Positions 7,835 to 55,276 of a stretch of DNA of 64,000 nucleotides are shown here, in pieces. Both the position numbers and the translations under genes were made by a program. The DNA is taken from NCBI GenBank assembly GCA_964473905.1, contig CAYYQY010000003.1, positions 20,546-84,545 on the forward strand, given 5' to 3'. The notes below the pieces were generated by a model, which saw only the letters and a list, made by a program, of their open reading frames with translations, ran no database searches and was not told where the DNA came from. The stretch comes from an uncultured Dehalococcoidales bacterium (lineage in GTDB: Bacteria; Chloroflexota; Dehalococcoidia; Dehalococcoidales; CAYYQY01). Every line of letters begins with the position of its first letter. Position 1 is the stretch's first letter.

Positions 7835-8599
7835 TTAATTATTGCTGTCCTCTTCATCTTCCTGGTCGAGAGCATCCTCGGCGTAAGATTCTTCGTATCC
7901 CATACGTTCCCTTAACATATTATCGCTGACGTAGGTCCGTGAATCCCGGAGTGTCTTGGAGGGGAAAGACATCTGTCCGGTCTGGCTGGGGTCCTGATAT
8001 GTCTCCCTGATAATAGCCGTGACATTATCGTCACTGGCGCTAATAACGTTAGCGGCGTACCTGTTGCCACCCTGCATCAGCCTGATAAGCCGCTGCGCAA
8101 TTTTGGGGTCAATCTGTCCCACATATTCACCGTGGTTATTGCCTGCCGTGAGGTTTGAGCCGGCTATTCTGAGATACAACTGGTCGCCAGCTGCCAGCCG
8201 GACTGTGACATGACGGGGGGGCGGATAATTGAGTTTAATAACTCCAGCCTTACCCACTTCCTCTATAAAATGATGCGGCTCGGCCTTGTTTATATCCTCT
8301 TCGGCTTTTTCCTCGCCCTCTCCCAGTTGTGCCAGGCGCTGGAGGTTCTTTTTGGCGATATTGTTGTACGAATCAAGTTCCAGCGCGTAGCTATAAGCAT
8401 CACTTGATTTTGCGTACATACCGAGCTGCATGTAAGCCCTGCCCAGACGATTATAGGCTTCAATATCTTTGGGAAAGTTGTCTATTATTTCCTGATTTAC
8501 GGTTATAGCTTCTTTCCATCGTCCCTGCATGGCGAGGGCGATGGCATGTTTACTGCGCTGTCGCCTTAATCTGGCTTGTCCTTCTTCCTCGTATGTCAT
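7835..8599 (-). CDS. TPR-repeat protein with an uncharacterised C-terminal domain and an acidic tail
   Basis: 254 aa. The N-terminal half has TPR-like helices (AYNRLGRAYMQLGMYAKSSDAYSYALELD). The C-terminal about 130 aa are unassigned. The tail is DALDQEDEEDSNN. Confidence 0.6.
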   Translation of the reverse strand: MTYEEEGQARLRRQRSKHAIALAMQGRWKEAITVNQEIIDNFPKDIEAYNRLGRAYMQLGMYAKSSDAYSYALELDSYNNIAKKNLQRLAQLGEGEEKAEEDINKAEPHHFIEEVGKAGVIKLNYPPPRHVTVRLAAGDQLYLRIAGSNLTAGNNHGEYVGQIDPKIAQRLIRLMQGGNRYAANVISASDDNVTAIIRETYQDPSQTGQMSFPSKTLRDSRTYVSDNMLRERMGYEESYAEDALDQEDEEDSNN

Positions 8600-8602
8600 C
8601 AG

Positions 8603-10384: not shown

Positions 10385-10393
10385 TGCAGAAAC

Positions 10394-11569
10394 TTAAACG
10401 AGCAGACTCCTATCATTTAATCTGCCCGTGATTAGCTTCAGTGATTGTACCTGGCTGTAGTTACCAACAATGGCCCCGGGCTGGGCGACTGTGTTGTTTC
10501 CCAGATAGCAACTCTCACCGATTATGGCTCCCATATTCACCCCGTAGTATTCATCGCCAATCTTAACATCAGCTTCCCCGCTGCATGCTATGAAATGACT
10601 TTTAATAACGCAACCCTTGTCTATAATTGAATCCTCAATAATGCACCCCGCCCCGATATGAACGTCGTTACAGATGATGCTGTTACGTATTTCACTGAAA
10701 GGCGATATTATGACGTTATCGCCGACACTGGTGGATGGCATCAGACATACGTTAGGGCCGATATCACAGTTCTTACCGATAACCACCGGGCCTACCAGGT
10801 AGGAGTTGGCGTGTATCAATGTGCCTTCCCCCACTGATACCTGTCCCTTGATGGTAACACCATTCTCTATTGTGCCACCGGTATTGCCGTCTATCCGGTG
10901 AAGAACGATATCGTTAAGACTGAGCAGGTGCCAGGGATGGACTACGTCCAGCCAGGTGCCATTTGTTTTCTGGGCGCTGATAGTATTGCCCTGTAAAATC
11001 ATGTTGTTCAGGACATCGGGGATGTCCAGTTCCGGTTCAATAAAATTGAATATATCGTTGGTAAAGGCGTAGATACCGGTATTAACCATATTGCTTACCG
11101 CTTCTCTGGGTTTCTCAATAATATTTCTAACCGAGCCGTTATCCAAAATGACAGCCCCGTATCTGGAGGGGTCATCCACTCTTTTTATAAGCACGGCATG
11201 CGGTTCGGCACTCACAAACCGGGCGATAGTAGCCGCTTCAATCAGATTATCTCCGGGCAGCACCAGGAATTTATCGGTAATCACAGACCTGACATGTGCC
11301 AGCGCATGAGCCGTGCCCAGTTGTCTTTCCTGTGTGACATAGTTGATTTCAACGCCGAATTGCTCTCCCGAGCCGAAATAATCTAGCACCTGCTCGCGCC
11401 GGTAGCCGACAACGAGCACAATATTGCGAATACCGTTTTCAGCCAGGGCTTCGATTACGTAGCTCAGTATGGGCTTACCGGCTACATGCAGCATTACCTT
11501 GGGCTTGGTAACCGTGAGCGGTCTCAGCCTTTGCCCTTCACCGGCGGCCAGTATTACTGCTTGCTCCAT
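10394..11569 (-). CDS. Sugar-1-phosphate nucleotidyltransferase fused to a left-handed beta-helix acyltransferase (archaeal-type GlmU-like), paralog 1
   Basis: 391 aa. ILAAGEGQRLRPLTVTKPK nucleotidyltransferase signature. The C-terminal half consists of hexapeptide repeats (IGKNCDIGPNVCL...VGDNVII...). Confidence 0.8.
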   Translation of the reverse strand: MEQAVILAAGEGQRLRPLTVTKPKVMLHVAGKPILSYVIEALAENGIRNIVLVVGYRREQVLDYFGSGEQFGVEINYVTQERQLGTAHALAHVRSVITDKFLVLPGDNLIEAATIARFVSAEPHAVLIKRVDDPSRYGAVILDNGSVRNIIEKPREAVSNMVNTGIYAFTNDIFNFIEPELDIPDVLNNMILQGNTISAQKTNGTWLDVVHPWHLLSLNDIVLHRIDGNTGGTIENGVTIKGQVSVGEGTLIHANSYLVGPVVIGKNCDIGPNVCLMPSTSVGDNVIISPFSEIRNSIICNDVHIGAGCIIEDSIIDKGCVIKSHFIACSGEADVKIGDEYYGVNMGAIIGESCYLGNNTVAQPGAIVGNYSQVQSLKLITGRLNDRSLLV

Positions 11570-11580
11570 AGCTTTTCTCC

Positions 11581-12783
11581 CTAGAAGACCCTGGCGTTGG
11601 GTAGAATAACGCCGCTGGCCAGGGCGCCCGGCCCGATTTGCGCGTTATTCCCGATAACAGTACCTATATTGATGCAGGCATTGATTCCCGTTTCTACCCC
11701 GTCACCAATTATAGCACCTAACTTACGCCTTTTGGTATCTATGCCGCCCACGGTGATATTATTGCCGTCAAGCCGGAGGTTAGCTATCTTGGTACCGGCA
11801 CCGAGATTGCACTCTTCACCTATAATACTATCGCCTATATAGTTGTGGTGAGGAATCTTGCTGTTCTTCATGATTATGCTGCTTTTAATCTCTACCGCGC
11901 TACCGATACGGCAGTTATCGCCGATAGCCGTGTAGGGGCGAATATAGCAGTTCGGGCCGATGTCACAGTTGTCCCCGATAATGACCGGCCCGACTATATA
12001 TGACCCTGACCGTACTTTAGTATTGGTACCAATGGATACCGCACCCTGCAGCACCGTATTATTTTCAATGTCGCCATAGTTCTGGGCTTCAACTGTACTG
12101 AGTAGAGACTGGTTGGCGGATAATAAATCCCAGGGGTGGCTCACGTCAAGCCAGCCGTTGATTTCCATGTAGGAAACACGCTGCATATTGTCTATAAGCA
12201 TCTGGAGAGTATCCGTAATTTCATATTCACCGCGCGGTGATTTCGGGGTACTCGCCATAAAGCTGAATATATCAGGGGTAAACAGATAAAGACCGGCATT
12301 GGCCATGAACGATGGGGGTTTAACTGTCTTTTCGTAAATGTGGACTACCCTGTCGCCGCTCGACTCTACCATGCCCAGGTCTTGGCCGTCTGTCGTCCTG
12401 AATAGACTGATAGTGTTTTCATGCCTGTTTGACAGGCTGAAGATTTCGTTACGCCGCACGATAATATCGCCGTTCATTACCAGGAAATTACCGTCAATCA
12501 GGCTTTCAGCCATTCTGATAGCGTCAGCCGTTCCCAGCCGCTTTTTCTGGGTGCAGTACTCTATGCTGACACCCCATTTATCACCACGGCCAAAGTAATC
12601 ACGCAGTTGCTCGTCGTGGTAGCCCACGATAAAAATATAATCATTGATGCCAGCTTGCCTCGCTTCAATGAGCAGGTGCTCAATGATGGGCTTATTGGCT
12701 ATGGGTAACATTACCTTGGGCCGGTTGAAGGTTAGCGGGCGCATGCGGTTACCTTCGCCGGCGGCCAGTATGACTGCCTGCAA
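11581..12783 (-). CDS. Sugar-1-phosphate nucleotidyltransferase fused to a left-handed beta-helix acyltransferase (archaeal-type GlmU-like), paralog 2
   Basis: ILAAGEGNRMRPLTFNRPK plus C-terminal hexapeptide repeats. I moved the start from the track's TTG at 12801 to the TTG at 12783. GGAGGG lies 8 nt upstream of 12783, the N-terminus then aligns with paralog 1 (M-QAVILAAGEG), and the start sits 1 nt after the glmM stop. Confidence 0.78.
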   Translation of the reverse strand: MQAVILAAGEGNRMRPLTFNRPKVMLPIANKPIIEHLLIEARQAGINDYIFIVGYHDEQLRDYFGRGDKWGVSIEYCTQKKRLGTADAIRMAESLIDGNFLVMNGDIIVRRNEIFSLSNRHENTISLFRTTDGQDLGMVESSGDRVVHIYEKTVKPPSFMANAGLYLFTPDIFSFMASTPKSPRGEYEITDTLQMLIDNMQRVSYMEINGWLDVSHPWDLLSANQSLLSTVEAQNYGDIENNTVLQGAVSIGTNTKVRSGSYIVGPVIIGDNCDIGPNCYIRPYTAIGDNCRIGSAVEIKSSIIMKNSKIPHHNYIGDSIIGEECNLGAGTKIANLRLDGNNITVGGIDTKRRKLGAIIGDGVETGINACINIGTVIGNNAQIGPGALASGVILPNARVF

Positions 12784-40021: not shown

Positions 40022-42055
40022 ATGGACGTAGTCAAGACCGTCTGTAATATGTGTGATGTTAGGTGCGGTATAGATGCCTATGTTGAGAACGGGCAGATAG
40101 TAAAAATTGATGGTATGCCGGAGCACCCGCATAACTCCCTCTGTGTTAAGGCATATGCTATTCCGGAGCTTGTTCATTCCAAAGACCGGTTGACCAGCCC
40201 CATGCTTAAGGTAAACGGAGAGTTCAAGGATATTACCTGGGACGAGGCGTTTACTGTTATCGCTGATAATTTGAACAGAGTTAAGGAGAAGTACGGGCCG
40301 CAGGCGCTCAATGTCCATGTTGGTAATGCCTATATCGGTACCCAGACAGAGAAAATAGTAAGGCGTTTTAGCGATCTTTTTGGCACGCCCAACTACTCTA
40401 CGGGTGGTTCGTACTGCTTTCTGGCCAGTACTCTGGGGCACATGATAACATGCGGGGCACACGTGCTCCCGGATTTTGAGGGTAATCCCAGGTGCATGGT
40501 TATGTGGGCTAGCAACCGTACTCAGAGCAGTCCTCCCTACGCCGAGGTGATTAGCCGCTGGGTAAGTGATAAAACCAAGTTAATAGTGATCGATCCCAGA
40601 ATTACCAAACGCGCTAAAGAGGCGGATATATATGCTCAAATCAGGCCGGGAACGGATTGTGCTCTGGCACTCGGTATGCTGAATGTTATTATCGCTGAAG
40701 AGCTTTATGATAAACAGTTTGTAGAGCAGTGGACTGTTGGCTTTGAACAGTTAGCTCAACATGTAAAGACATACTCGCCCGAGAAGGTTGAGACGATAAC
40801 GTGGGTACCGGCAGGCACTATCCGGGATATGGCCCGCCTGTACGCCACGAGTAAGCCGGCCTGCATCTCGCTGGGTATTCCCACCAATCACAGCACTAAC
40901 GGGGTTCAAACCGTCAGGGCTATTACCATACTGATGGCTATTACGGGTAACATTGATGTAGCCGGTGGCGATATTATTACACCATCACTGTGGCAGTCAA
41001 GCATCCGGGTTAAAGGCAGCATACCTGATTTAAGCACTTCGCTCGGTGCTGACTACCCTATATTCAGGAGATATGCGGTAGAGTCAACAGCTTCGCCTCT
41101 TACCGAGACAATACTCAGCGAAGTACCTTACCCGGTAAAAGCCTTGATTTTTGCTGGCTGTAACCCACTAATGACCATGCCGAATACTAACAAGGTAAGA
41201 CGTGCCTTTGAAAAGCTGGATTTCATGGCGGTTATAGACATATTTATGACGGATACGGCCAGGATGGCTGACCTGGTACTGCCTGGAACGAGCTTTGCGG
41301 AAAGGGAGGACTTAAGGCACTGGCGTGCGGATGGGCTAAGCCTGGTAGTGGCGACCAATAAGGTGGTGGAACCGCCTGGAAACTGCATGGAAGACTGGAA
41401 AATATGGGCGGCGCTGGCCGAAAAGATGGGTTATGGTGAGTATTTTCCCTGGAAGACGACCGTAGATCTGCTTGAATACCTGCTTAAACCGTCCGGTATT
41501 ACGCTGGAGCAGCTCAGGGCAAACCCGGGTGGTGTCTACTATGCCGGGAAAAAATATAAAAAATATCTGGAGGAAGGATTTGCTACACCGTCTAAAAAGG
41601 TAGAGCTGTATTCCGAACTGATGGAGCAGCACGGGTATGAACCACTACCATCATTTAAAGAGCCGGTGGAAAGTCCGGTAAGCCAGCCTGATTTAGCCGC
41701 GAGCTATCCTTTAATAATGATTACCGGTACCCGGACAGCGGGTTATCTCCACTCTGAGTACCGCAATTTGCCCAGCCTGCGTAGGCTTATGCCGGAGCCG
41801 ATAATTGAAATAAATACGGATACGGCGCATAATCTTAATATAACGGATGGAGACCGGGTTAAAGTTGAATCAAGAAGGGGAAGCGTTGAGTTAAAGGCCA
41901 GAGTGCATAATGATATACATCCTGAGGTGGTATCCATGCAGCACGGGTGGAGTGAGGCTAACGCTAATGTGTTGACCAATGATGAGGTCCGTGACCCGGT
42001 ATCGGGCTTCCCCGCGTTTAAGGGTGTTTTGTGCAGAGTGGTTAAGGTAGGCTAA
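40022..42055 (+). CDS. Cytoplasmic molybdopterin (Mo/W-bisPGD) oxidoreductase, stand-alone catalytic subunit, substrate unknown
   Basis: 677 aa. N-terminal [4Fe-4S] motif CNMCDVRC...(x24)...C (Cys8, Cys11, Cys15, Cys41). No twin-arginine signal. The candidate metal ligand is Cys132 in GGSYCFLAS. AGGAGG lies upstream. Confidence 0.85.
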   Translation: MDVVKTVCNMCDVRCGIDAYVENGQIVKIDGMPEHPHNSLCVKAYAIPELVHSKDRLTSPMLKVNGEFKDITWDEAFTVIADNLNRVKEKYGPQALNVHVGNAYIGTQTEKIVRRFSDLFGTPNYSTGGSYCFLASTLGHMITCGAHVLPDFEGNPRCMVMWASNRTQSSPPYAEVISRWVSDKTKLIVIDPRITKRAKEADIYAQIRPGTDCALALGMLNVIIAEELYDKQFVEQWTVGFEQLAQHVKTYSPEKVETITWVPAGTIRDMARLYATSKPACISLGIPTNHSTNGVQTVRAITILMAITGNIDVAGGDIITPSLWQSSIRVKGSIPDLSTSLGADYPIFRRYAVESTASPLTETILSEVPYPVKALIFAGCNPLMTMPNTNKVRRAFEKLDFMAVIDIFMTDTARMADLVLPGTSFAEREDLRHWRADGLSLVVATNKVVEPPGNCMEDWKIWAALAEKMGYGEYFPWKTTVDLLEYLLKPSGITLEQLRANPGGVYYAGKKYKKYLEEGFATPSKKVELYSELMEQHGYEPLPSFKEPVESPVSQPDLAASYPLIMITGTRTAGYLHSEYRNLPSLRRLMPEPIIEINTDTAHNLNITDGDRVKVESRRGSVELKARVHNDIHPEVVSMQHGWSEANANVLTNDEVRDPVSGFPAFKGVLCRVVKVG

Positions 42056-46281: not shown

Positions 46282-47793
46282 TTAAAAACACAGTTTACCC
46301 GGGTTCATAATGTTATTCGGGTCACTCTTATTCTTGAGTTTCTTCAGATATTCGGCGTAAGTCCCGGAGCGACTGTACATAATTTCAGCCCAGGGTCCGT
46401 AGGGTCTATCAAAGAAACCACCCATATCAACCACTACTTCGCTGGCCTCTTTGTAGAGAGCCTTAACCGCTTGACTTTCCGCCGCGTCGTCAAGGTTGCA
46501 GTGAAAGTCAAATTCGCAGTATATGGTTCTCGCCCGCTCTATGGGCAGCAGATAGCCGCCGATATCACTGGTCGGGTAGTTGTATTTACAGGCTACGTCG
46601 TAGATAGCTGCCTCCAGTAAGCCTACCGTGTCCGGGCTCGAGTGGAACATAAGCCCGTGGCATGAGCCTTTATAACCGAATCGCTTCTGCATCCGGCCAG
46701 GCAGTATCACTTCCTCCTTGATGATATTGCTCAGTCCGGTTATAGCACCTACGGTATTCTTTAGCTCGCAACCACTTTCAACCGCTACGTCCTTCAGGTC
46801 CAGTTCCTGGTAGGCTAGTTTCTCATCGGCGCGTCTTGCCCAGCCGGTGAGGCAAACAATTATCGTCCAGGGTGGCAGGTTACCTCTGATGCTTTCAAAC
46901 TGCATGACCTGCTCTTCTGTCCAGGGGTTGGCGCCTCTATTCCCGACGTAAGTTCCCTTTTTCAGCTTATCGTCCTCACCCGGTATGTCTACCACCAGGG
47001 CGGCCAGGTCAAAGCTGTTAAAGGCAAAACATTCCAGTCCCAGTTCCTTGCGCTCAATACGCTGTATGATATGGGTCGCCTGGCTTACTGTCTCCGCCGG
47101 TATAAAGATGACTTTTTGGGCGGTCGGTAGTGGCAGGAGCCTTATTGCCATCTGTGTCACGATGCCGAAGGTGCCCTGAGAGCCCATGTAAAGGCGATAA
47201 AAGTCAAATGCCGGTCCGTCCGGGGCCATAGCACGTGATTTCTGTGTTGGCGGATGACCTATCGTGAACAGCTCGCCGGTAGGCATTAACATGTCGTAGG
47301 TACTGAAAAGCTCATTACCGAAGACGAAATCAGGAGCGGTAACCACCGGGTTCCTCTCTATATAGTCCACCAGCACCGAAGCCGAAGGCGGACTGGTAAG
47401 CGGTGCGGCTACTCTCAGGCCGTATTTTTCCAGTTCCGGTTGAAGCTGGGCATAGGTTACTCCGGCTTCAATCAGGGCGTGCCAGTTCCGCTCGTCTATA
47501 TAGGTAATCTTGTTGAGCCTCTGCAGGTTTACCAGGATACCGCCGATACTGGGAACGGCACCGCCGTGAAAGTCTGTCCCCGAGCTATAGGGGACAACCG
47601 GCATCAGGAGTTTGTTGGCCAGTCTGACTATTTCCTGGACCTCCGCTACAGTACCCGGCGTGACTACATAGTTAGGCCTTGTCTGCGGGACAAAACTCTG
47701 GTCGCGTGAATATTTATCCAGGACTAAGGGGTCATCGGAGGCATTATCTTTGCCTACGATAGCTGCTAATTCCTCAAGGATGCTATCACTCAC
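46282..47793 (-). CDS. FAD-linked oxidase/dehydrogenase subunit, type B, copy 1 (GlcD/D-lactate dehydrogenase-like)
   Basis: 503 aa. FAD_binding_4-type loop VVPYSSGTDFHGGAVP, and a C-terminal DPNNIMNPGKLCF. Confidence 0.8.
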   Translation of the reverse strand: MSDSILEELAAIVGKDNASDDPLVLDKYSRDQSFVPQTRPNYVVTPGTVAEVQEIVRLANKLLMPVVPYSSGTDFHGGAVPSIGGILVNLQRLNKITYIDERNWHALIEAGVTYAQLQPELEKYGLRVAAPLTSPPSASVLVDYIERNPVVTAPDFVFGNELFSTYDMLMPTGELFTIGHPPTQKSRAMAPDGPAFDFYRLYMGSQGTFGIVTQMAIRLLPLPTAQKVIFIPAETVSQATHIIQRIERKELGLECFAFNSFDLAALVVDIPGEDDKLKKGTYVGNRGANPWTEEQVMQFESIRGNLPPWTIIVCLTGWARRADEKLAYQELDLKDVAVESGCELKNTVGAITGLSNIIKEEVILPGRMQKRFGYKGSCHGLMFHSSPDTVGLLEAAIYDVACKYNYPTSDIGGYLLPIERARTIYCEFDFHCNLDDAAESQAVKALYKEASEVVVDMGGFFDRPYGPWAEIMYSRSGTYAEYLKKLKNKSDPNNIMNPGKLCF

Positions 47794-47860
47794 TTCTCTA
47801 CCCCCTTTCTTGAGTTATGCTGATAGTAAACAGCACTCACCAGTATTTGTTTCTTGGACA

Positions 47861-49393
47861 TTATTGCTCCAGCCTGACAAGCTTCCCCGGGTTCATGGTG
47901 TCGTTGGGGTCAAAGACGTTCTTTATCTGGGTTACCCAGTGCTTGGCGTTGGGACCTACCCTTGGGGAGTATATGGTAAGCACGGGTTCCATATAGTAGT
48001 ATCCCAGGTCAAGCAGGTCTTGCTTGGGTGTGCGGACAAAGCCGTCTATATTCATATCGCGGGCTGAACTCGCTTCCTCGTAATCAGACTGGTCAAAGAC
48101 CGTATCGTCTTCAAACAGCGCGTAATACCCCCGCTCAAAGATGTAAACCCAGGGGGTCTCCTCGTCGAACATGTAGTGGGAATGTCTCATGACTATATCC
48201 TGAGACCGCTCGTAAAACTCCCGGTGGTTGTCTATGTGACCGCAGCCGAGTTTGATAGAAGAAAAGCTGCCCCGGCGCTGGAAACGGCTGCCGCAGCCGT
48301 CGCGGAAGGCATCGCCATGCCAGGTTGCCATCTCTTCATTAAGGTCATCTCTGAACTTGCCGCCGGTCTCCTTGACGATATCCCGGAGAACGTTCTCTTC
48401 GTGGTCCAACTGCCTTGTCGACGAGATACCGGCGTTGATGACGTAAATCATGTGTCGGGGGAAGAACCCCTCGTGCCATCTCTTTTCCGCAAGCTCTTCG
48501 GTTTGCTGTGTCATACCGGTAACCCAACCATTTGAAGCCCCGTTAAGGTGGGTGCCGATGCCGGAGTGCGCGATTTCGTACATGGCTTCATTCATGGGCT
48601 CAATATCGGGGTATTCTACGTAGTAAATCCTGTGGTTGGCAGGTAACGGCGGCCTGTTGTAAACGGTCTCCTGTGGCCATTCGCCTCCGGCCCAGGGATG
48701 CAGCTTCATGGTGGCCTCTACGATAACCGCCATACCGCCATGATTGCAGAACTCAAAAATACCCTTGAGGTCAGGCCCAGGTCCCTGGCACCAGAAGTTG
48801 CCGCAGGCGGGTATGGTAGCCGAACCGGTCTTCAGAATATCACCGTTGGGTAAAACCAGGGTGAGGTTGGCTATTGAGCGCAGACCGACACCGTAGGCCA
48901 GCGAACTCTGCCAGGTACCGCTGTTAATAATGTTGGATAAGAGTCCGCAGCTACCCGGGGCTAACGGGGTGCCCCCGTTCCACAGCCCTCGCTTCATGGT
49001 TTCAGCCTGAATACGGGCGAAACTAACGTAGGGCTGAATGGTAGCCGTCATGGTATCTTCGTTGATTTCAAGAATCTTGTCCATTCGTTTCAGGTCAAGA
49101 GAAATGGTGCCCGGTTCACTCGGTATGCAGAGGGATACCATGTTAGCACCGGTACTTATGGGGATTACCTTTAGCCCGTACCTGTTAGCGATGCGGACTA
49201 CCCCTTGCACCTCCTCCGTGCTTGCCGGTAATACCACCAGGTCCGGAATAGCGGAGGGGTCTTGCTTGTATCTCTTCATAATTCCGGGGAAGGCCCCGTC
49301 CTTGGAGTATGTCTGGCGAACCATGGGGTCATCGCTGATAAAATCAGGGCCGACCACCGCGGCTATTGCTTGATAAACATGAGGTTCAATCAA
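47861..49393 (-). CDS. FAD-linked oxidase/dehydrogenase subunit, type A, copy 1
   Basis: 510 aa. PCMH-type FAD domain with a divergent loop VIPISTGANMVSLCIP, and a C-terminal DPNDTMNPGKL. TTG start behind AAGGAGGTG. Confidence 0.75.
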   Translation of the reverse strand: MIEPHVYQAIAAVVGPDFISDDPMVRQTYSKDGAFPGIMKRYKQDPSAIPDLVVLPASTEEVQGVVRIANRYGLKVIPISTGANMVSLCIPSEPGTISLDLKRMDKILEINEDTMTATIQPYVSFARIQAETMKRGLWNGGTPLAPGSCGLLSNIINSGTWQSSLAYGVGLRSIANLTLVLPNGDILKTGSATIPACGNFWCQGPGPDLKGIFEFCNHGGMAVIVEATMKLHPWAGGEWPQETVYNRPPLPANHRIYYVEYPDIEPMNEAMYEIAHSGIGTHLNGASNGWVTGMTQQTEELAEKRWHEGFFPRHMIYVINAGISSTRQLDHEENVLRDIVKETGGKFRDDLNEEMATWHGDAFRDGCGSRFQRRGSFSSIKLGCGHIDNHREFYERSQDIVMRHSHYMFDEETPWVYIFERGYYALFEDDTVFDQSDYEEASSARDMNIDGFVRTPKQDLLDLGYYYMEPVLTIYSPRVGPNAKHWVTQIKNVFDPNDTMNPGKLVRLEQ

Positions 49394-49410: not shown

Positions 49411-50646
49411 TCATAACCCCTGCAGTACAAGGTCCAGCAAATCATACATTTTCATCTTGTTGCCGTTTCTCTGGATAGCCTCGCCCAGGTTTTCTTCACA
49501 GTGGGGGCAGTAAGTAACCAGGGCTTCAGCACCGGTGCTCTCTGCCTCCTCAATGCGCTTGTCCGCTGTCCACTGTGCCAGTTCCAGGTATCCATCCCGG
49601 AGCCAGCTACCGGCACCGCAACACCACGAATCATCCCTGTTTCTATCCATTTCGGTTAGTGTAATACCGGGAATACTGTTCAGGATATTCCTGGGTGGCT
49701 CATAGATACCGGAGAAAGCTCCCGTGCCGCTGATACCATAATCGCTGATTCTGCCGAGGTGGCAGGGGTCGTGGTAGGTCACGTTCAGGTTAACCGGCTT
49801 GGTTAGTTTGAGTTTACCCTGGGTTATGAGCTCGTCTGTGAACTCAAGGATATGGACAACCTCAAAGTTCATCTTTTCACCTACCTCGGGGTAGTCGCGC
49901 TTAAAAGTGCTGTAGCAGAAGGGGCAGATGGTAACCAGCTTTTCGATTCCCATATCATTGAACATCTTGATGTTCTCTTTGGCGAAAGCGTGGAACGAGT
50001 CCACATCGCCCATTCGGAGCGAGGGATTGCCACAGCAGCGCTCTTTCTCGCCGAGGATACCGACGTCAACACCGGCCTTGATGAGAACGGTAGCAGCGTC
50101 CTGAGCCATTTTCTCGGCTGAGGGGTCGCGGAGCGGGAAACAGCCGACATAGAGCAGGGTCTTGGTCTTGGTGCCTGTGCCGGAGATACCGTCGGCCAGG
50201 CTGGCGGGCAGACCCTTCATCCAGTTAATTCTCTCGGCGTCGTGTTTCCTGTAGGGGTTCATGTATTCTCTAAGGTCATCCAGGAAGGTTTTGAAGCCGC
50301 CGGGCGGGTTCAGACCGTCCTTGAGTGCCTTGGCCCTCATTGCCTGGATTATCTGTGTGGGTTGCATCTCTTTGATACGTCCGCATATATAATCACAGGC
50401 GCCGCAGAGCGGGTCCTGATAAATTACCTCAAGCATGCTGTCAGACCAGTCCAGTTCGCCCTCAATTAAGGCACGGGCGATATCCATTTTACCCTGAGCA
50501 GCGTAACAGTCAAACTTGTATCGGGATATACTGGGGCAAATCTGGTAGAACTCTGCGTTCTTGGTATGCCAGGGGAAGACCTGCTTACACTGGCTATCGC
50601 GAAAGCAGTTCCAGGTCCACCGACGGTAATCTTTAAGTTCTTTCAT
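49411..50646 (-). CDS. Soluble (Fe-S)-binding protein with two CCG domains (HdrD/GlcF-like), copy 1
   Basis: 411 aa. CCG motifs ...YVGCFP..CCGNP..ICPFCY and ...HDPCHL..CCGAG..YCPHCE. N-terminal non-canonical Cys pattern. ATG behind GGAGGA. Confidence 0.8.
   Translation of the reverse strand: MKELKDYRRWTWNCFRDSQCKQVFPWHTKNAEFYQICPSISRYKFDCYAAQGKMDIARALIEGELDWSDSMLEVIYQDPLCGACDYICGRIKEMQPTQIIQAMRAKALKDGLNPPGGFKTFLDDLREYMNPYRKHDAERINWMKGLPASLADGISGTGTKTKTLLYVGCFPLRDPSAEKMAQDAATVLIKAGVDVGILGEKERCCGNPSLRMGDVDSFHAFAKENIKMFNDMGIEKLVTICPFCYSTFKRDYPEVGEKMNFEVVHILEFTDELITQGKLKLTKPVNLNVTYHDPCHLGRISDYGISGTGAFSGIYEPPRNILNSIPGITLTEMDRNRDDSWCCGAGSWLRDGYLELAQWTADKRIEEAESTGAEALVTYCPHCEENLGEAIQRNGNKMKMYDLLDLVLQGL
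49907..50249. repeat. Near-identical tract shared with 51426-51768 (inside the CCG-protein gene, copy 1)
   Basis: Base-by-base comparison at a fixed offset of 1519 nt gives 343 nt with a single mismatch (49954 A versus 51473 G, synonymous GAT/GAC). Positions 49955-50249 are a perfect 295-nt match. Confidence 0.9.
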
Positions 50647-50882
50647 ACCTTATCCTCCTCATATCTTGAGAAGTGGAAGCGGAGTAGCATGTACTGGCAA
50701 AATACGAATACGTGATACTATCTCTTCCTTATCCATGTCATTCTACTTGCCGGAAAATCTGTAAGCCTAGCCCGGACAAAAAATTCCGAGTGTCATGCCC
50801 GGTATCGTAAGTATAAGGTCTGAATATATACAGGCTGCCGTATTACCGGACAGCATAAATGACATAGCTCTCGCCGTTAATA

Positions 50883-50919
50883 GAAGAGTAAGGTTCTTTT
50901 TTATAGAACCTTACTCTTC
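50883..50919 (-). terminator. Perfect 15-bp hairpin just downstream of the CCG-protein gene, copy 2 (possible terminator separating the two modules)
   Basis: GAAGAGTAAGGTTCT (50883-50897), 7-nt loop, AGAACCTTACTCTTC (50905-50919). Starts 10 nt after the stop codon at 50930. No clear U-tract. Confidence 0.35.
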
Positions 50920-50929
50920 GCTATCTTTA

Positions 50930-52171
50930 TTACAGTGCCTGCAGTACAAGGTCCAGCAGGTCATACATTTGCATCTTGTTGCCGTTTCTCTGGATAGCCT
51001 CGCCCAGGTTTTCTTCACAGTGGGGGCAGTAGGTAACCAGCGCTTCAGCACCGGTGCTTTCTGCCTCCTCAATGCGCCTGTCGGCTGTCCACTGTGCCAT
51101 GTCAAGATATCCGTCCCGGAGCCAGCCACCGGCACCGCAGCACCAGGAATCATCCTTGTTGCGGTACATCTCGGTAAGCGTTACGCCGGGAATGCTGTTC
51201 AGGATGTTTCTTGGCTGTTTATACTTGCCAATGAAATCATCCGTACCACTGGTACCATTACCGCTGATTCTGCCGAGGTGGCAGGGGTCGTGGTAGGTAA
51301 CGTTCAGGTTAACCGGCTTTGTCAGTTTGAGTTTGCCCTGTGCGATAAGTTCATCCACCATATCCAGGATGTGGATAACCTCGAAGTTCATCTTCTCGTC
51401 AACCATGGGATAATCGCGGGTAAAGGTGCTGTAGCAGAAGGGGCAGATGGTAACCAGCTTTTCGATTCCCATGTCATTGAACATCTTGATGTTCTCTTTG
51501 GCGAAAGCGTGGAACGAGTCCACATCGCCCATTCGGAGCGAGGGATTGCCACAGCAGCGCTCTTTCTCGCCGAGGATACCGACGTCAACACCGGCCTTGA
51601 TGAGAACGGTAGCAGCGTCCTGAGCCATTTTCTCGGCTGAGGGGTCGCGGAGCGGGAAACAGCCGACATAGAGCAGGGTCTTGGTCTTGGTGCCTGTGCC
51701 GGAGATACCGTCGGCCAGGCTGGCGGGCAGACCCTTCATCCAGTTAATTCTCTCGGCGTCGTGTTTCCGGAAGGGGTTCATGTATTCTCTGAGGTCATCC
51801 AGGAAGGTTTTAAAGCCGCCGGGCGGGTTCAGGCCGTCCTTGAGTGCCTTGGCCCTCATTGCCTGGATAACCCGGGTTGGTTGCATCTCAGTAATACGTC
51901 CGCAGTTATAATCACAGGCGCCGCAGAGCGGGTCCTGATAGATTACCTCAAGCAGTTTATCTGACCACTCTATTTCACCTTCAATCATGGCACGGGCTAA
52001 ATCGCCCATTTTCCCTTGAGAGGAATAGGCATCAAATTTATAACGTGTCAGAGTCGGGCAGATATCATCATAGTCTGCATTCTTGAGGTGCCAGGTGAAG
52101 ACATGTTTACATGTGCTATCGCGAAAGCAGTTCCAGCACCAATGTCTGTACTCTTCCAGTTCCTTGATCAT
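50930..52171 (-). CDS. Soluble (Fe-S)-binding protein with two CCG domains (HdrD/GlcF-like), copy 2
   Basis: 413 aa. About 85% identical by eye to copy 1, with the same CCG motifs. Confidence 0.8.
   Translation of the reverse strand: MIKELEEYRHWCWNCFRDSTCKHVFTWHLKNADYDDICPTLTRYKFDAYSSQGKMGDLARAMIEGEIEWSDKLLEVIYQDPLCGACDYNCGRITEMQPTRVIQAMRAKALKDGLNPPGGFKTFLDDLREYMNPFRKHDAERINWMKGLPASLADGISGTGTKTKTLLYVGCFPLRDPSAEKMAQDAATVLIKAGVDVGILGEKERCCGNPSLRMGDVDSFHAFAKENIKMFNDMGIEKLVTICPFCYSTFTRDYPMVDEKMNFEVIHILDMVDELIAQGKLKLTKPVNLNVTYHDPCHLGRISGNGTSGTDDFIGKYKQPRNILNSIPGVTLTEMYRNKDDSWCCGAGGWLRDGYLDMAQWTADRRIEEAESTGAEALVTYCPHCEENLGEAIQRNGNKMQMYDLLDLVLQAL
51426..51768. repeat. Near-identical tract shared with 49907-50249 (inside the CCG-protein gene, copy 2)
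   Basis: See the partner repeat at 49907-50249: 343 nt with 1 mismatch, and a 295-nt perfect core (51474-51768). Confidence 0.9.
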
Positions 52172-52191: not shown

Positions 52192-53715
52192 TTAGAAGCA
52201 GAGCTTGCCCGGATTCATAATGTTGTTGGGGTCCAGTTGCGCCTTTACTTTCTTAAGGTACTCGGCATAGTTACCGCTACGCCGGTACATCATGTCTGCC
52301 CAGACTCCATAGGGCCTATCGAAGAACGCGCCAGCATCGATAGCAGCTTCACTGGCTTCATGGAATAAAGCCTTGACTCTTTCCACGTCAGCGGCACTGG
52401 CTGATTCACAGTGCAGGTCATAGACGCAGTAGAAAGAGCGCGCCCGTTCCACCGGCTGGACATAAGCGCCAACATCACCCCATGAATAGTTGTATTTGGC
52501 AGCTACCTTGGCTATAGCTTCTTCAATCTTGGAGAGTGCAGCACCGGTACTGTAGAACATTAGACCGTGGCAAGAGCCTCTGTAACCAAATCTCTTTTGC
52601 ATTCTCCATGGGAGGAGCATTTCCTCCTCGATTATTTTTCCAAGACCCGATATACCGCCTACGGATGGCTTTAGCTCAAAGCCAACTTCAGCAGACAGGT
52701 CTCTGAGGTCGAGTTCCTGGTATTGAACTTTCTCCTCGGGATGTCTTGCCCAACCTGTAAGCGTAATTACCAGGGTCCAGGGGGGCAGGGCATGTCTCAG
52801 TGTCTCGAAACGCTTTCTTTGAGCCTGAGACCAGGGCTTGGCACCAGTGTTACCGATGTATGAGCCTTGCTTCAAGCTCTTGGTATCGGCGGCGTCCTCG
52901 TCAACGGCGAGGGTAGCCAGGTCAAAGCTGTTGAGCGCGAAGCATTCAAAACCGAGTTCCTGGCGCTGAATGCGTTTCATAGCGCCTATAACGTCAGCGG
53001 CATTAGCAAAGGCAACGAAGAACACTTTCTGTGCTTTGGGTTTCGGGATTACTCTCACGTTAATTTCATAAACAGTACCCAGTGTTCCCTCTGCACACAT
53101 GAACATTCGGTAGAAGTTCAGGCCGGGGCCAAAGATATGCGAGTGTGGGGCCCCTTCAACTGCCGGGTTACCCATGGTGAAGCTGTCACCGTTGGGTATT
53201 ACGACACGCATAGTCTGCATCTGCTCATTGCCGTAAATGAAGTCTGCCGCGCACGGTACCGGCTCTCTCTCAACGTATGAAATGAGGGCTGATGCCGAGG
53301 GAGGAGCCATAAGTGGCGTGGGCAATCTAAGGTCGTGCTTATCGAGCTCTTCTTTCAGCTGGGCAAAGGTTAAACCGGGGCCGATACTTACCCAGTGATA
53401 GAAAGTGTCAAGCTCGGATATCTTGTTCATTTGACTCAGGTCAACCACGATACCGCCCTGAGTGGGTACGGAGCCCCCGTGGAAATCGGTAGCGGAGCTA
53501 CGCGGCACCAGGGGCATGAGTTGCTCGTTGGCGAATTTAACGATGTTTTGCAGTTCCTCGAGTGACTTGGGTTTTACCACATAGTGGGGCTTGCGGGCCG
53601 GGGTAAAGCTCTGGTCACGGGAATATTTTTCTAAGGTAGCAGTGTCGCTGGACACCCCTTTGGCGCCGACTATTTTATTCAGTCCATCTTTAATGGCATC
53701 TTTAACTTCACTCAT
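52192..53715 (-). CDS. FAD-linked oxidase/dehydrogenase subunit, type B, copy 2
   Basis: 507 aa. LVPRSSATDFHGGSVP and a C-terminal DPNNIMNPGKLCF. Roughly half identical to copy 1 by eye. Confidence 0.8.
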   Translation of the reverse strand: MSEVKDAIKDGLNKIVGAKGVSSDTATLEKYSRDQSFTPARKPHYVVKPKSLEELQNIVKFANEQLMPLVPRSSATDFHGGSVPTQGGIVVDLSQMNKISELDTFYHWVSIGPGLTFAQLKEELDKHDLRLPTPLMAPPSASALISYVEREPVPCAADFIYGNEQMQTMRVVIPNGDSFTMGNPAVEGAPHSHIFGPGLNFYRMFMCAEGTLGTVYEINVRVIPKPKAQKVFFVAFANAADVIGAMKRIQRQELGFECFALNSFDLATLAVDEDAADTKSLKQGSYIGNTGAKPWSQAQRKRFETLRHALPPWTLVITLTGWARHPEEKVQYQELDLRDLSAEVGFELKPSVGGISGLGKIIEEEMLLPWRMQKRFGYRGSCHGLMFYSTGAALSKIEEAIAKVAAKYNYSWGDVGAYVQPVERARSFYCVYDLHCESASAADVERVKALFHEASEAAIDAGAFFDRPYGVWADMMYRRSGNYAEYLKKVKAQLDPNNIMNPGKLCF

Positions 53716-53716
53716 C

Positions 53717-55276
53717 TCAACCCTCCTTCTCCGCTTTCTTCTTTTCCGGAGGTCTTATGAAAGTTAATGCGTCCGGATTAAGAATGTCCTTGGGGTCGAA
53801 TACACTCTTCATCCGCTTGAGCATCAAATGGAAATTGGGACCTATCTTGGGGCCAAACCAGGCTCCTGTTGGCTCGGCAAGCGTAAAGTAACCAGAGGGG
53901 TTCTCACAAGTGGTTTTAACGATTTCAACTACGAACGGTAGTATCTTCTGAGAGTAGTCCAGCTGGTCGCCGTAGAGGTCGCGCTCGTCAACCCAGAAAT
54001 AACCGCGGTCGTAGGCATAATACCACGGCCAGGTGGTATTAACGCTTGGAATATCCCCATTTTTAATTACGTCCTGCTGGCTGTGATGAACCTGGACCAT
54101 GTTTTCAATAGGTCCGCGTCCGAATCCGGTTATGGCGTATATTCCGTAACGAATCCAGCGAACGAAGTCGCCGCTGCGGAAGCAGTCCTGGTTATAAGCA
54201 TCCATGTGGCCTCTGCGTTCACCGGTGAGAGGTTCTCCACCCACCTCTTCCATTATCTCCTTCAGTATCATTTCTTCGTAATCCAGCTGGCGGGGAGAGA
54301 AGCCGGCGAGCATAATGTACATCCAGTGCGGTTCGTAAAAACCCTCGTCGAATCGTTTTACGGAAAGCGCCTGGTGAGACTCGCCGACCAGTGAATCAAC
54401 AGATTTCATGGTCAGGTTAACACCAATAGCAATGCCGGCGTAGCATATATCATGGCCGGCTTTAATCGCTTGCTCGGGTTTATTGAATCTGTACCAGAAA
54501 ACGCGATGGTTGGCGGGTAGCGGTGGATGAGCGTAGACCTCCTCTTGGGGCCACTCTCCGCCTACCCAGGTGTGCAGCTTATAAATTACTTCGGTTATCA
54601 CACCGATAGCACCGAAACTGCCCATTTCCCAGAGTGCCTTGAGGTCCGGGCCGGGGCCGTACCAGTAGGTAGAATCGCCTGGATTTAAGCCGTGGGCACC
54701 GGTGCGAATGATTTCTCCGTTAGGCAGGACAACGGTAAAGGCGAGGACGCCTCTGATACCGAAACCATAAGCTACGGAGGTTTGCCAGTCGCCACCATAG
54801 GCCAGTATGTTTGAAATGAGGTTATTACTGGCTGGAGCGGCAGGTGTGCCGCCATTCCATAGACCGCGTTTCATTGCTTCAGCCTGGACTCGGGAGTAGC
54901 TGACCCAAGGTTGCATCCTGATGAACTTGTTTTCCTCATCAATTTCCAGAATCTTGTCCATGCGTTTGAGGTCAAGAATAATAGTCCTGGGCCTTCGCGG
55001 GATACAGTATCCGGTAAGGTTATCCCCAGAACCCATGATTATCACGTTGACTGCGTACCTGTTGCAAATACGCATGACTCCCTGTACTTCTTCTGTATCC
55101 AAAGGGATAACTATGGCATCAGGAATGGCAACCGGGTCTTTTTTCAGCTTCCTCACGGTGATTGATGGGTGAGGATCCCGGCTATAGGCGTGGCGGATAA
55201 CAATGTCATCACTAACAAAATCAGGACCGACAACTTCAGCAAGTGCCTGGATAACATAAGGTTCTATCAATTCCAA
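53717..55276 (-). CDS. FAD-linked oxidase/dehydrogenase subunit, type A, copy 2
   Basis: 519 aa. VIIMGSGDNLTGYCIP and DPKDILNP. The N-terminus MELIEPYVIQALAEVVGPDFVSDD parallels copy 1. TTG start behind AAGGAGGTG. Confidence 0.75.
   Translation of the reverse strand: MELIEPYVIQALAEVVGPDFVSDDIVIRHAYSRDPHPSITVRKLKKDPVAIPDAIVIPLDTEEVQGVMRICNRYAVNVIIMGSGDNLTGYCIPRRPRTIILDLKRMDKILEIDEENKFIRMQPWVSYSRVQAEAMKRGLWNGGTPAAPASNNLISNILAYGGDWQTSVAYGFGIRGVLAFTVVLPNGEIIRTGAHGLNPGDSTYWYGPGPDLKALWEMGSFGAIGVITEVIYKLHTWVGGEWPQEEVYAHPPLPANHRVFWYRFNKPEQAIKAGHDICYAGIAIGVNLTMKSVDSLVGESHQALSVKRFDEGFYEPHWMYIMLAGFSPRQLDYEEMILKEIMEEVGGEPLTGERRGHMDAYNQDCFRSGDFVRWIRYGIYAITGFGRGPIENMVQVHHSQQDVIKNGDIPSVNTTWPWYYAYDRGYFWVDERDLYGDQLDYSQKILPFVVEIVKTTCENPSGYFTLAEPTGAWFGPKIGPNFHLMLKRMKSVFDPKDILNPDALTFIRPPEKKKAEKEG

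What the first reader, a model, noticed from the sequence alone, without database searches (positions are those of the whole stretch)
49907..51768. 343-bp near-identical tract inside otherwise diverged tandem paralogs: recent gene conversion between the two CCG-FeS genes
At a constant offset of 1519 nt, 49907-50249 equals 51426-51768 except for one synonymous A/G difference (49954 / 51473). The perfect core is 295 nt. Immediately outside the tract the divergence rises stepwise: about 6 mismatches in the next 100 nt on the right, clearly more in the following 100, and by eye 10-20% on the left side. The neighbouring A and B paralogs show nothing comparable. The tract encodes the first CCG domain and the segment before it (...KHDAERINWMKGLPASLADGISGTGTKTKTLLYVGCFPLRDPSAEKMAQDAATVLIKAGVDVGILGEKERCCGNPSLRMGDVDSFHAFAKENIKMFNDMGIEKLVTICPFCYST). 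This is the signature of ongoing concerted evolution of one functional surface, while the N-terminal Fe-S part and the second CCG domain are free to diverge. It is also a substrate for deletion of the 1.5-kb interval, and a likely source of assembly collapse in short-read data.
Basis: seen in the sequence. Interest (0 to 1): 0.65.

Follow-up and report, generated by a model that had tools for sequence, protein, structure and literature searches.

The report
Gene conversion between adjacent Fe-S paralogs
Two neighbouring genes for cysteine-rich iron-sulfur subunits in an uncultured Chloroflexota genome keep overwriting each other's middle section by recombination; this is a clean, multi-species example of a well-known process, but the newest 12-base step is seen only in this assembly and needs raw reads to confirm.

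Summary
Window 49907-50249 equals 51426-51768 except for one synonymous site, and the perfect core is 295 nt (permutation p<5e-5).

The two genes lie on the minus strand: C1 at 49411-50646 and C2 at 50930-52171. Each encodes a two-CCG-domain Fe-S subunit. They belong to two anciently diverged operons that abut, A2-B2-C2 then C1-A1-B1. A1/A2 are 41% and B1/B2 52% identical in protein, with saturated synonymous sites.

Related loci show true concerted evolution:
- In three species, codons ~100-235 are 95-99% identical between paralogs of one genome but only 78-83% between orthologs.
- Codons 1-65 group by gene type instead.

This excludes purifying selection and independent duplications.

Three other assemblies of essentially the same strain are ≥99.83% identical over 7-8 kb. 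They differ from the window almost only at 12 sites in C1 (50072-50227), where the window carries the C2 bases. This is either a very recent C2→C1 conversion of 156-295 bp (about 0.6) or an assembly artefact (about 0.35).

The predicted assembly collapse is real elsewhere: fusion contigs, a 1519+50-nt loop contig, and many contigs that end inside the tract.

This is a new member of a known kind, of moderate interest.

The parts
49411..50646 (-). C1: 411-aa Fe-S protein with two CCG domains. First gene of operon C1-A1-B1 and the acceptor of the latest conversion.
   Evidence: ORF and translation. Pfam CCG, 2 stretches, E=8e-34. HdrB, TfrB, GlpC and LdhH-like hits, all below the NCBIfam cut-offs. 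PDB 9ojn_A residues 406-743 and HdrB 5odc_B.
50930..52171 (-). C2: 413-aa paralog, last gene of operon A2-B2-C2 and the donor. Its sequence is identical in the window and in L001.
49907..50249 (-). Near-identical tract, C1 copy (C1 nt 398-740, residues 133-247). It covers the linker and the whole first CCG motif.
51426..51768 (-). Near-identical tract, C2 copy.
50072..50227 (-). Minimal span of the newest patch. At 12 sites (C1 nt 420-575) the window's C1 has the C2 base, while L001, L024 and L023 have other bases (3 are non-synonymous: G156S, T163N, G192D). The maximal span is 49955-50249.
50250..50435 (-). Older homogenised shoulder in C1 (C1 nt 212-397; about 91% identical to C2; pS 0.1-0.3). 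Concerted site patterns dominate here.
49414..49608 (-). Second, older homogenised block at the 3' end of C1 (codons 347-411; 91% identical to C2 against 80-84% to orthologs). It includes a 60-nt perfect run at 49453-49512.
50452..50646 (-). Type-specific 5' segment of C1 (codons 1-65). It groups with C1 orthologs of other species (77-86%), not with C2 of its own genome (71%).
50647..50929 (-). 283-bp spacer between the two operons. A perfect 15-bp-stem hairpin (50883-50919) starts 10 nt after the C2 stop codon and resembles a terminator. On the minus (coding) strand the tail after it is not T-rich.
46282..49393 (-). A1 (47861-49393) and B1 (46282-47793): FAD_binding_4 oxidoreductase subunits, partners of C1.
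52192..55276 (-). A2 (53717-55276) and B2 (52192-53715): FAD_binding_4 subunits, partners of C2. They are only 41% and 52% identical in protein to A1 and B1, with no converted tract.

Best explanation
C1 and C2 are old paralogs that encode the CCG-type iron-sulfur subunit of two different three-subunit FAD-linked dehydrogenases. The two operons, A2-B2-C2 and C1-A1-B1, lie head to tail, so the two C genes are direct repeats 1519 bp apart.

Homologous recombination between them repeatedly copies a few hundred bases from one gene into the other. The likely route is RecA-type strand invasion or break repair using the paralog as template, followed by heteroduplex repair. This non-reciprocal interlocus gene conversion has homogenised the middle of the genes (about codons 70-246), and more weakly the 3' end. 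It has done so independently in each species.

The first ~65 codons, and in this genome codons ~247-289 and ~302-345, stay type-specific. Two reasons are possible: their divergence blocks heteroduplex extension, or converted variants there are selected against because they must fit the very different A/B partners.

The 295-nt perfect core in the window is the newest layer. It is a C2-to-C1 patch of 156-295 bp that erased 12 differences still present in other assemblies of the same population.

Shown: the mosaic pattern, its phylogenetic signature, the templated nature of the 12 changes and their direction.
Inferred: the molecular pathway, the reason the N-terminus resists conversion, and that the last patch is biological rather than an assembly product.
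For: 1. Synonymous sites. pS is 0 over codons 136-225 and 0.8-0.9 in other windows of the same gene pair. Permutation gives p<5e-5.

2. The tract is not slow-evolving. Orthologs differ by 17-21% there, the same as elsewhere in the gene.

3. Phylogenetic switch along the gene:
- Codons 1-65: W1-S1 79% and W2-S2 82%, against W1-W2 71%, S1-S2 73% and U1-U2 65%.
- Codons 100-235: W1-W2 99%, S1-S2 95% and U1-U2 97%, against 78-83% for every between-species pair.

4. Quartet site patterns, window versus L019:
- nt 1-180: 20 orthology sites to 8 concerted.
- nt 271-720: 3 orthology sites to 63 concerted.
- The same holds for window versus L007 (3:81) and for L019 versus L007 (4:71).

5. N-terminal type follows operon type in all loci of the ≥70% clade, including stand-alone operons (L021 C1-A1-B1, L011 B2-C2-xerC).

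6. Strain level.
- L001 (ENA, 7845 nt) differs from the window at 13 sites, 12 of them in window 50072-50227.
- L024 (another ENA sample, 7179 nt) differs at exactly those 12 sites and nowhere else.
- L023 (JGI) has the same 12 bases.
- At all 12 sites the window's C1 equals C2, and C2 is unchanged.

7. Long perfect runs in the same region occur in an independent species and assembly: L007 has runs of 204 and 101 nt.

8. A second strain-level patch exists in species S. L020's C2 carries C1 bases at three clustered sites, nt 220/223/234. The related strain L008 keeps the C2 bases at the first two of these sites.
Against: - The window's converted state is seen in only one assembly, an NCBI MAG contig of 86.9 kb. 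Its C1 protein is on record from one contig only.
- Outside the patch the window and the other assemblies differ at 1 site in about 12.7 kb. A neutral conversion arising before any point mutation would be somewhat surprising, unless conversion is frequent here or the patch was selected.
- The patch removes exactly all differences inside the pre-existing high-identity block.
- No reads were available.
- The molecular pathway (RecA, mismatch repair) was not tested.
- Some apparently recombinant contigs (L023, L025, L010) are better explained as assembly products and were not counted as evidence.
Confidence: 0.88

Rival explanations
1. Assembly or polishing artefact for the newest layer only. The true genome is like L001/L024, with 13 differences in the tract, and the MAG's assembler wrote C2 sequence into C1 over nt 420-575. 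The older homogenisation would still be real.
For: - Three other assemblies of an otherwise identical population lack the patch.
- This paralog pair demonstrably confuses assemblers. L025 is a C2::C1 fusion with its junction in the 117-nt identical stretch.
- L023 is a 1519+50-nt loop contig whose first 50 nt equal its last 50.
- Contigs end inside the C gene at residues 126-244 in L004, L005, L006, L008, L015, L016, L017, L018 and L022.
Against: - The left junction lies in a 22-nt identical interval (C1 nt 398-419), between C1-specific bases at 395/397 and the first C2 base at 420. A de Bruijn contig with k≥25 can contain that junction only if reads contain it.
- A collapsed-graph consensus would also have made nt 333-397 and nt 693 equal in both copies, and they are not.
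- C2 is untouched.
Confidence: 0.35
2. The polarity is reversed. The ancestor had C1 identical to C2 across the tract, as in the window. The 12 'a' bases in L001, L024 and L023 were imported into C1 from a diverged relative by ordinary between-strain homologous recombination.
For: - Clustered differences typical of between-strain imports exist nearby in the sister species: 14 of the 44 L019/L020 differences fall within about 600 nt of A1.
- Some 'a' bases match bases seen in other species.
Against: - At nt 504 and 575 the 'a' base occurs in none of the 11 other sequences compared, and at nt 488 in only one of them. Two of these three changes alter residues (T163N, G192D). This points to private divergence of this C1 rather than an import from a sampled relative.
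- Even under this reading, the identity in the window still requires an earlier conversion.
Confidence: 0.1
3. The identity reflects strong purifying selection, or an embedded nucleotide-level element, in the first CCG domain rather than recombination.
For: The tract encodes the five conserved cysteines of a CCG cluster-binding motif.
Against: - Identity extends to all but one synonymous site.
- The same segment is only 78-83% identical between orthologs. It is 65-88% identical (20-codon windows) between a stand-alone C1 (L021) and a stand-alone C2 (L011).
Confidence: 0.02
4. Independent recent duplication of the C gene in each species, rather than conversion between old paralogs.
For: The copies are adjacent. 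Tandem duplication is a known alternative for adjacent concerted pairs, as noted for fla in PMC6053082.
Against: - The first 65 codons, and the flanking operons, are orthologous by type across species.
- The two copies sit in differently ordered operons.
- Each operon type exists alone in other genomes.
- Each gene pair shows a mosaic of saturated and zero pS.
Confidence: 0.03

Closest known systems
tufA/tufB concerted evolution by gene conversion in bacteria
   Same: Old paralogs are kept similar by recurrent RecA-type non-reciprocal recombination. Paralogs within a genome are closer than orthologs, and the identity includes synonymous sites. It is the best-known prokaryotic case (cited in PMC6053082; the mechanistic details are from my own knowledge of the Salmonella work).
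   Different: The tuf copies are far apart, are homogenised over essentially the whole gene and are functionally redundant. Here the copies are 1.5 kb apart, belong to two different enzyme operons, and only part of the gene is homogenised.
mtrA-1/mtrA-2 and the other 25 genes with long-lasting recurrent concerted evolution in prokaryotes (Wang & Chen 2018, PMC6053082)
   Same: The diagnostic logic is the same: paralogs cluster by genome while flanking genes show orthology. Conversion is recurrent across several species, and the genes encode subunits of energy-metabolism complexes. mtrA is also a tandem pair.
   Different: No CCG or Fe-S subunit gene and no Chloroflexota operon of this kind is in that list. 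The depth here is shallow: species about 80% identical in DNA, not hundreds of millions of years as far as shown. That survey scored whole genes, while this case is segmental.
GlcDEF glycolate oxidase, D-lactate dehydrogenase with a CCG Fe-S partner, and YdiJ-type fused enzymes
   Same: Two VAO/PCMH-type FAD subunits sit next to a protein with two CX(n)CCGX(m)CXXC motifs. The best solved relative of C is the middle of a 1042-aa 'iron-sulfur-binding reductase' (9ojn_A, E=1e-32).
   Different: No NCBIfam equivalog cut-off is reached: GlcD 75-102 bits against 568, TfrB 173 against 385, GlpC 71 against 278. Pfam finds no Fer4 domain in the N-terminus. The substrate is unknown.
Repeat-induced assembly collapse in short-read metagenomes
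   Same: The fusion contig L025, the loop contig L023 of period+50 nt, and contig ends inside the repeat are textbook de Bruijn graph behaviour.
   Different: In the window itself both copies and the spacer are assembled, and the junction interval is too short (22 nt) for the usual collapse.

Membership tests
Interlocus gene conversion / concerted evolution of paralogs | Paralogs within a genome are more similar than orthologs between genomes in the affected segment. | tested here: met
   Codons 100-235: 95-99% within genome against 78-83% between species, in three species. Quartet patterns for nt 271-720 are 63:3, 81:3 and 71:4, concerted to orthologous.
Interlocus gene conversion / concerted evolution of paralogs | The duplication predates the species split: flanking or unaffected segments retain orthology. 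| tested here: met
   Codons 1-65 group by type. N-terminal type follows operon type in every locus of the clade. A and B partners are 41% and 52% identical.
Interlocus gene conversion / concerted evolution of paralogs | The identity includes synonymous sites, and the identical fragment is longer than expected from the overall divergence (GENECONV-type test). | tested here: met
   pS is 0 over 90 codons against 0.34 gene-wide. The 295-nt run exceeds the permutation maximum of 102, and the third-position run of 105 exceeds the maximum of 47.
Interlocus gene conversion / concerted evolution of paralogs | Templated, clustered differences between closely related strains, showing the process is ongoing. 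| tested here: inconclusive
   12 of 13 differences (L001) and 12 of 12 (L024) lie in 156 nt, and all equal the paralog. The converted state is in one assembly only, and no reads were available. A smaller 3-site patch is present in L020.
Interlocus gene conversion / concerted evolution of paralogs | Both copies and the tract are confirmed by reads or long reads. | not testable with these tools
   The tools give no access to reads.
CCG-domain Fe-S subunit (HdrB/HdrD, GlcF, GlpC, TfrB class) | Two CX(n)CCGX(m)CXXC motifs. | tested here: met
   Pfam PF02754 matches twice, 116-120 bits. Cysteines are at 169/204/205/241/244 and 295/342/343/380/383. The protein aligns to HdrB 5odc_B residues 5-237.
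CCG-domain Fe-S subunit (HdrB/HdrD, GlcF, GlpC, TfrB class) | Membership of a named equivalog (GlcF, GlpC, TfrB, LdhH, HdrB) by curated score. | tested here: not met
   All hits are far below the cut-offs.
CCG-domain Fe-S subunit (HdrB/HdrD, GlcF, GlpC, TfrB class) | N-terminal two-[4Fe-4S] ferredoxin-like domain with CxxCxxCxxxCP motifs, as in GlcF, GlpC and HdrD. | tested here: inconclusive
   Pfam reports no Fer4 domain in C1 or C2. More distant homologs carry PF13183. The sequence has cysteines at 14, 20, 37 and 81, 84, 88 only.
GlcDEF-like three-subunit FAD-linked dehydrogenase | Two FAD_binding_4 (VAO/PCMH) subunits encoded next to the Fe-S subunit. | tested here: met
   Pfam PF01565 is found in A1, B1, A2 and B2. 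PDB relatives are D-lactate dehydrogenase, p-cresol methylhydroxylase and glycolate oxidase.
GlcDEF-like three-subunit FAD-linked dehydrogenase | Glycolate or lactate specificity, or a demonstrated complex. | not testable with these tools
   GlcD and GlcE equivalog scores are not reached. No biochemistry was possible.
Short-read assembly chimera or collapse | The switch between copies occurs inside an identical stretch at least as long as the assembler's k-mer. | tested here: not met
   In the window the left switch interval is 22 nt. By contrast the feature is met for L025 (117-nt interval) and for the loop contig L023.

The most novel reading that the evidence does not exclude
Segmental concerted evolution acts as natural module sharing. 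The CCG cluster module of the Fe-S subunit would be interchangeable between two enzymes whose FAD subunits are only 41-52% identical, so conversion keeps it uniform and can even restore conserved residues. The newest patch reverts T163N and G192D at otherwise conserved positions, and G156S in a more variable stretch. The first ~65 residues would be the partner-specific adaptor, protected from conversion by selection. The conversion map would then be a free in-vivo map of the subunit interface. The population would also be polymorphic for converted, fused (one-copy) and possibly three-copy alleles.
Probability: 0.25. Interest if true: 0.55.

Novelty: new member of a known kind. Interest (0 to 1): 0.38.

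Why it matters
- It is a well-resolved case of segmental concerted evolution in an uncultured Chloroflexota (Dehalococcoidia-related) lineage, with events of several ages visible and possibly one caught as a population polymorphism.
- It shows that the Fe-S subunits of two otherwise very different FAD-dependent dehydrogenases share an exchangeable core.
- Trees of this protein family built from full-length sequences will be misleading, because the N-terminus and the core have different histories.
- It is a concrete warning for metagenome work. The same locus yields fusion genes, loop contigs and broken contigs in public assemblies. Several database proteins (P0121, P0002, P0013) may be chimeras.
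- It does not reveal a new kind of system.

Tried and rejected
1. L023/P0002 looked like a third strain with further C2 patches in C1, with the pattern C1/'a'/C2/C1/C2. I do not count it as evidence. The contig is 1569 nt, which is the 1519-nt repeat period plus 50, and its first 50 nt equal its last 50. It is flanked on both sides by the C2-C1 spacer. It is therefore a cyclic graph path. One feature remains unexplained: its C2-to-C1 switch lies in a 36-nt identical interval, shorter than the implied k of about 51.

2. L025/P0121 (same strain) and L010/P0013 (another species) carry a single C2::C1 fusion between B2 and A1. This could be a real 1.5-kb deletion or an assembly collapse, and the two cannot be told apart here.

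3. Exact-protein look-ups of the window's C1 (and of P0001) found no contig on record. I could therefore not identify the MAG, its sample or its assembler. The cluster look-up gave no accession.

4. GC-biased conversion. GC3 is 0.75-0.76 in codons 100-245 of the window's C genes against 0.48-0.66 in the other segments. Stand-alone homologs reach 0.64-0.72 there, so the signal is weak.

5. NCBIfam gave no equivalog for any of the six proteins, so no substrate can be assigned.

6. The promoter scan of the spacer found nothing convincing for C1.

7. The literature search for this operon in Dehalococcoidia found nothing specific.

8. Single-site differences between L019 and L020 inside the C genes that match the paralog are uninformative, because an ordinary mutation at a previously identical site gives the same pattern. 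Only the 3-site cluster was used.

9. Structure prediction was not run. A monomer model cannot show the A/B interface, which is the point at issue.
Full report
**1. The observation**

At a constant offset of 1519 nt, window 49907-50249 equals 51426-51768 except at 49954/51473. The longest perfect run is 295 nt. The single difference is the third base of Asp-231, so it is synonymous.

Both copies lie in minus-strand genes: C1 at 49411-50646 (411 aa) and C2 at 50930-52171 (413 aa). The tract encodes C1 residues 133-247. This covers a linker and the complete first CCG motif, with cysteines 169, 204, 205, 241 and 244.

The gene pair has 163 mismatches in 1233 aligned nt. Shuffling their positions 20,000 times never gave an identical run longer than 102 nt (mean 39). 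For third codon positions alone the observed run is 105, against a maximum of 47.

Synonymous divergence in 30-codon windows runs from 0 (codons 136-225) to 0.8-0.9 (codons 31-60, 256-285, 316-345). The tract is therefore real and far beyond chance.

They were too low on the low-coordinate side, where divergence is 22-32%.

**2. Anatomy of the locus**

Read on the minus strand, the order is:

topA | A2 (53717-55276) – B2 (52192-53715) – C2 | 283-bp spacer | C1 – A1 (47861-49393) – B1 (46282-47793) | xerC.

- A and B are FAD_binding_4 proteins of the VAO/PCMH superfamily. Their closest solved relatives are D-lactate dehydrogenase, p-cresol methylhydroxylase and glycolate oxidase.
- C has two CCG domains and aligns to HdrB and to the middle of a 1042-aa 'iron-sulfur-binding reductase'.
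- None of the six proteins reaches an NCBIfam equivalog cut-off.

These are therefore two GlcDEF-like dehydrogenases of unknown substrate.

They are not a duplicated ABC unit. One operon is ordered A-B-C and the other C-A-B. A1/A2 are 41% and B1/B2 52% identical in protein, with saturated synonymous sites. Each operon type also occurs alone in other genomes: L021 has C1-A1-B1 in another context, and L011 has B2-C2 followed directly by xerC. A perfect 15-bp-stem hairpin follows the C2 stop codon (50883-50919).

Only the two C genes, which happen to abut as direct repeats, resemble each other (86% in protein). A self-BLAST of the window finds no other repeat apart from a 203-nt, 73% match between B1 and B2.

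**3. Comparative test**

Relatives are MAGs and metagenome contigs labelled Chloroflexota or Dehalococcoidia. Complete C2-C1 pairs were obtained for two further species:
- S: L019 (from a 58-kb contig) and L020 (14 kb), from two JGI samples.
- U: L007.

Partial pairs come from L008+L015 and from L022.

Identity by segment:

| Segment | Orthologs between species | Paralogs within a genome |
|---|---|---|
| Codons 1-65 | W1-S1 79%, W2-S2 82% | W 71%, S 73%, U 65% |
| Codons 100-235 | 78-83% for every pair | W 99%, S 95%, U 97% |
| Codons 346-411 | 80-84% | 86-91% |

Quartet site patterns give the same map. For window versus S:
- nt 1-180: 20 orthology sites to 8 concerted.
- nt 271-720: 3 orthology sites to 63 concerted.
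- Orthology islands lie at nt 721-810 and 901-990.

For nt 271-720 the other two species pairs give 3:81 (window versus U) and 4:71 (S versus U).

Orthologs differ by about 18-20% in the tract, as elsewhere in the gene. Purifying selection or an embedded nucleotide element therefore cannot explain the identity. The 5' ends and the flanking operons are orthologous by type, so independent duplications cannot explain it either.

A single ancient homogenisation would give a star-like pattern, which is not what is seen. The process must have recurred after the species split. L007 has perfect runs of 204 and 101 nt in the same region.

**4. The newest layer**

L001 is an ENA megahit contig of 7845 nt that spans topA to A1. 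It is 99.83% identical to the window, and 12 of its 13 differences lie in window 50072-50227.

L024 comes from another ENA sample (7179 nt of a 10.9-kb contig). It differs from the window at exactly those 12 sites and nowhere else. L023 (JGI) carries the same 12 bases.

At all 12 sites the window's C1 equals C2, and C2 is identical in the window and in L001. The event is therefore templated, and its direction is C2 to C1. Its minimal span is 156 bp (C1 nt 420-575) and its maximal span 295 bp (nt 398-692).

The 'a' bases include three amino-acid changes: G156S, T163N and G192D. The bases causing T163N and G192D are absent from nearly all the other sequences compared. The unconverted C1 therefore looks privately diverged, and the patch restores the common residues.

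In the unconverted state the tract is still 96% identical between paralogs. Its 13 differences are concentrated in one half, which points to layered events of different ages.

A smaller patch of the opposite direction is seen in species S. L020's C2 has C1 bases at nt 220/223/234. L019's C2 has the C2-type bases at all three sites, and L008's C2 at the first two.

**5. Is the newest layer real?**

Against:
- It is present in only one assembly.
- The rest of the region is virtually identical between assemblies (1 difference in about 12.7 kb).
- This locus visibly misleads assemblers.

For:
- The left junction lies in a 22-nt identical interval, between the C1-specific bases at nt 395/397 and the first C2-type base at nt 420. 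Any contig built with k≥25 must have found that junction in reads.
- A collapsed-graph consensus would also have equalised nt 333-397 and nt 693, and it did not.

I put a real conversion at about 0.6, an artefact at about 0.35, and reversed polarity (import of the 'a' patch into the other strains) at most of the remainder. None of this affects the older concerted evolution, which rests on several independent assemblies whose copies differ enough to be assembled unambiguously.

**6. Assembly consequences**

- L025 (JGI, same strain) has B2 – [C2 nt 1-581 :: C1 nt 693-end] – A1. The junction lies in the 117-nt identical stretch.
- L010 shows the same kind of fusion in another species.
- L023 is 1569 nt, which is 1519+50, and its first and last 50 nt are identical. 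It has the spacer on both sides, so it is a cyclic path through the collapsed repeat.
- Contigs end inside the C gene at residues 126-244 in nine loci.

These could also be real deletion or amplification alleles, the reciprocal products of unequal crossing-over. That cannot be decided without long reads. Database proteins P0121, P0002 and P0013 should be treated as possible chimeras.

**7. Mechanism and comparison with known cases**

The pattern is classical interlocus gene conversion leading to concerted evolution. It is known for tuf, mtrA, amo, etf and others in prokaryotes (PMC6053082). That survey of 26 genes contains no CCG or Fe-S gene.

What is specific here:
- The two genes serve different operons.
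- Homogenisation is segmental, with a consistently protected 5' segment.
- Several layers are visible, down to a possible population polymorphism.

Why the first 65 codons resist conversion is an inference. Either their divergence (about 29-35% in DNA) blocks heteroduplex formation, or they carry partner-specific contacts. N-terminal type tracks operon type in every locus of the clade, which fits the second idea but does not prove it.

The homogenised area extends well beyond the first CCG domain and includes the end of the second.

**8. Verdict**

The gene-conversion interpretation is strongly supported in general. The recent step is plausible but unverified, and the functional gloss is only partly supported. 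This is a new member of a known kind, of moderate interest, with practical value as a warning about chimeric metagenome genes.

Noticed in passing
L025 (JGI 3300025628) 718-1959; L010 6796-8037: Single C2::C1 fusion genes sit between B2 and A1, in the same strain as the window (L025, junction in the 117-nt identical stretch) and in another species (L010). Each is either a real 1.5-kb deletion allele or an assembly collapse.
   Followed up: partly
L023 (JGI 3300005936), whole 1569-nt contig: The contig length equals the repeat period (1519) plus 50, and its first 50 nt equal its last 50. It is a cyclic graph path. One copy switch lies in a 36-nt identical interval, shorter than the implied k of about 51, and this remains unexplained. 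A real three-copy array or an excised circle is not excluded.
   Followed up: partly
window 50883-50919: A perfect 15-bp-stem hairpin with a 7-nt loop starts 10 nt after the C2 stop codon. It probably marks the end of the A2-B2-C2 transcript, although the tail on the coding strand is not T-rich.
   Followed up: partly
window 49907-50350 and 51426-51870 (codons 100-245 of C1 and C2): GC3 is 0.75-0.76 in the homogenised segment, against 0.48-0.66 in the other segments of the same genes and 0.50-0.66 in neighbouring genes. This may hint at GC-biased conversion, but stand-alone homologs reach 0.64-0.72 there.
   Followed up: partly
L019 9657-10261 versus L020 7829-8433 (A1 gene of species S): 14 of the 44 differences between two 99.7%-identical strains cluster in about 600 nt of A1. 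This looks like an ordinary between-strain recombination import, unrelated to the paralog.
   Followed up: no
L021 (JGI 3300033148) 8001-12362; L011 95-3878: The two operon types also exist alone. C1-A1-B1 lies near a molybdopterin oxidoreductase cluster in L021, and B2-C2 lies directly before xerC in L011. Adjacency of the two operons is therefore lineage-specific.
   Followed up: partly
window 50795-51640 (+): A 281-aa ORF lies antisense to C2 and has an odd composition. It is almost certainly a shadow ORF of the GC3-rich coding strand, not a gene.
   Followed up: no
P0009, P0012: Homologs from other metagenomes mix type-specific motifs in other combinations. P0009 has a C1-type N-terminus with the C2-type 'GTDDFxGKY' loop, and P0012 has a mosaic N-terminus. 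Either conversion boundaries differ widely between lineages or more chimeric contigs exist.
   Followed up: no
window 40022-42055 (+): A 677-aa ORF encodes a protein that looks like a cytoplasmic molybdopterin oxidoreductase (judged by eye from the translation; no domain search was run). It lies upstream of an apparent clpP and has no obvious partner subunits in the same direction.
   Followed up: no
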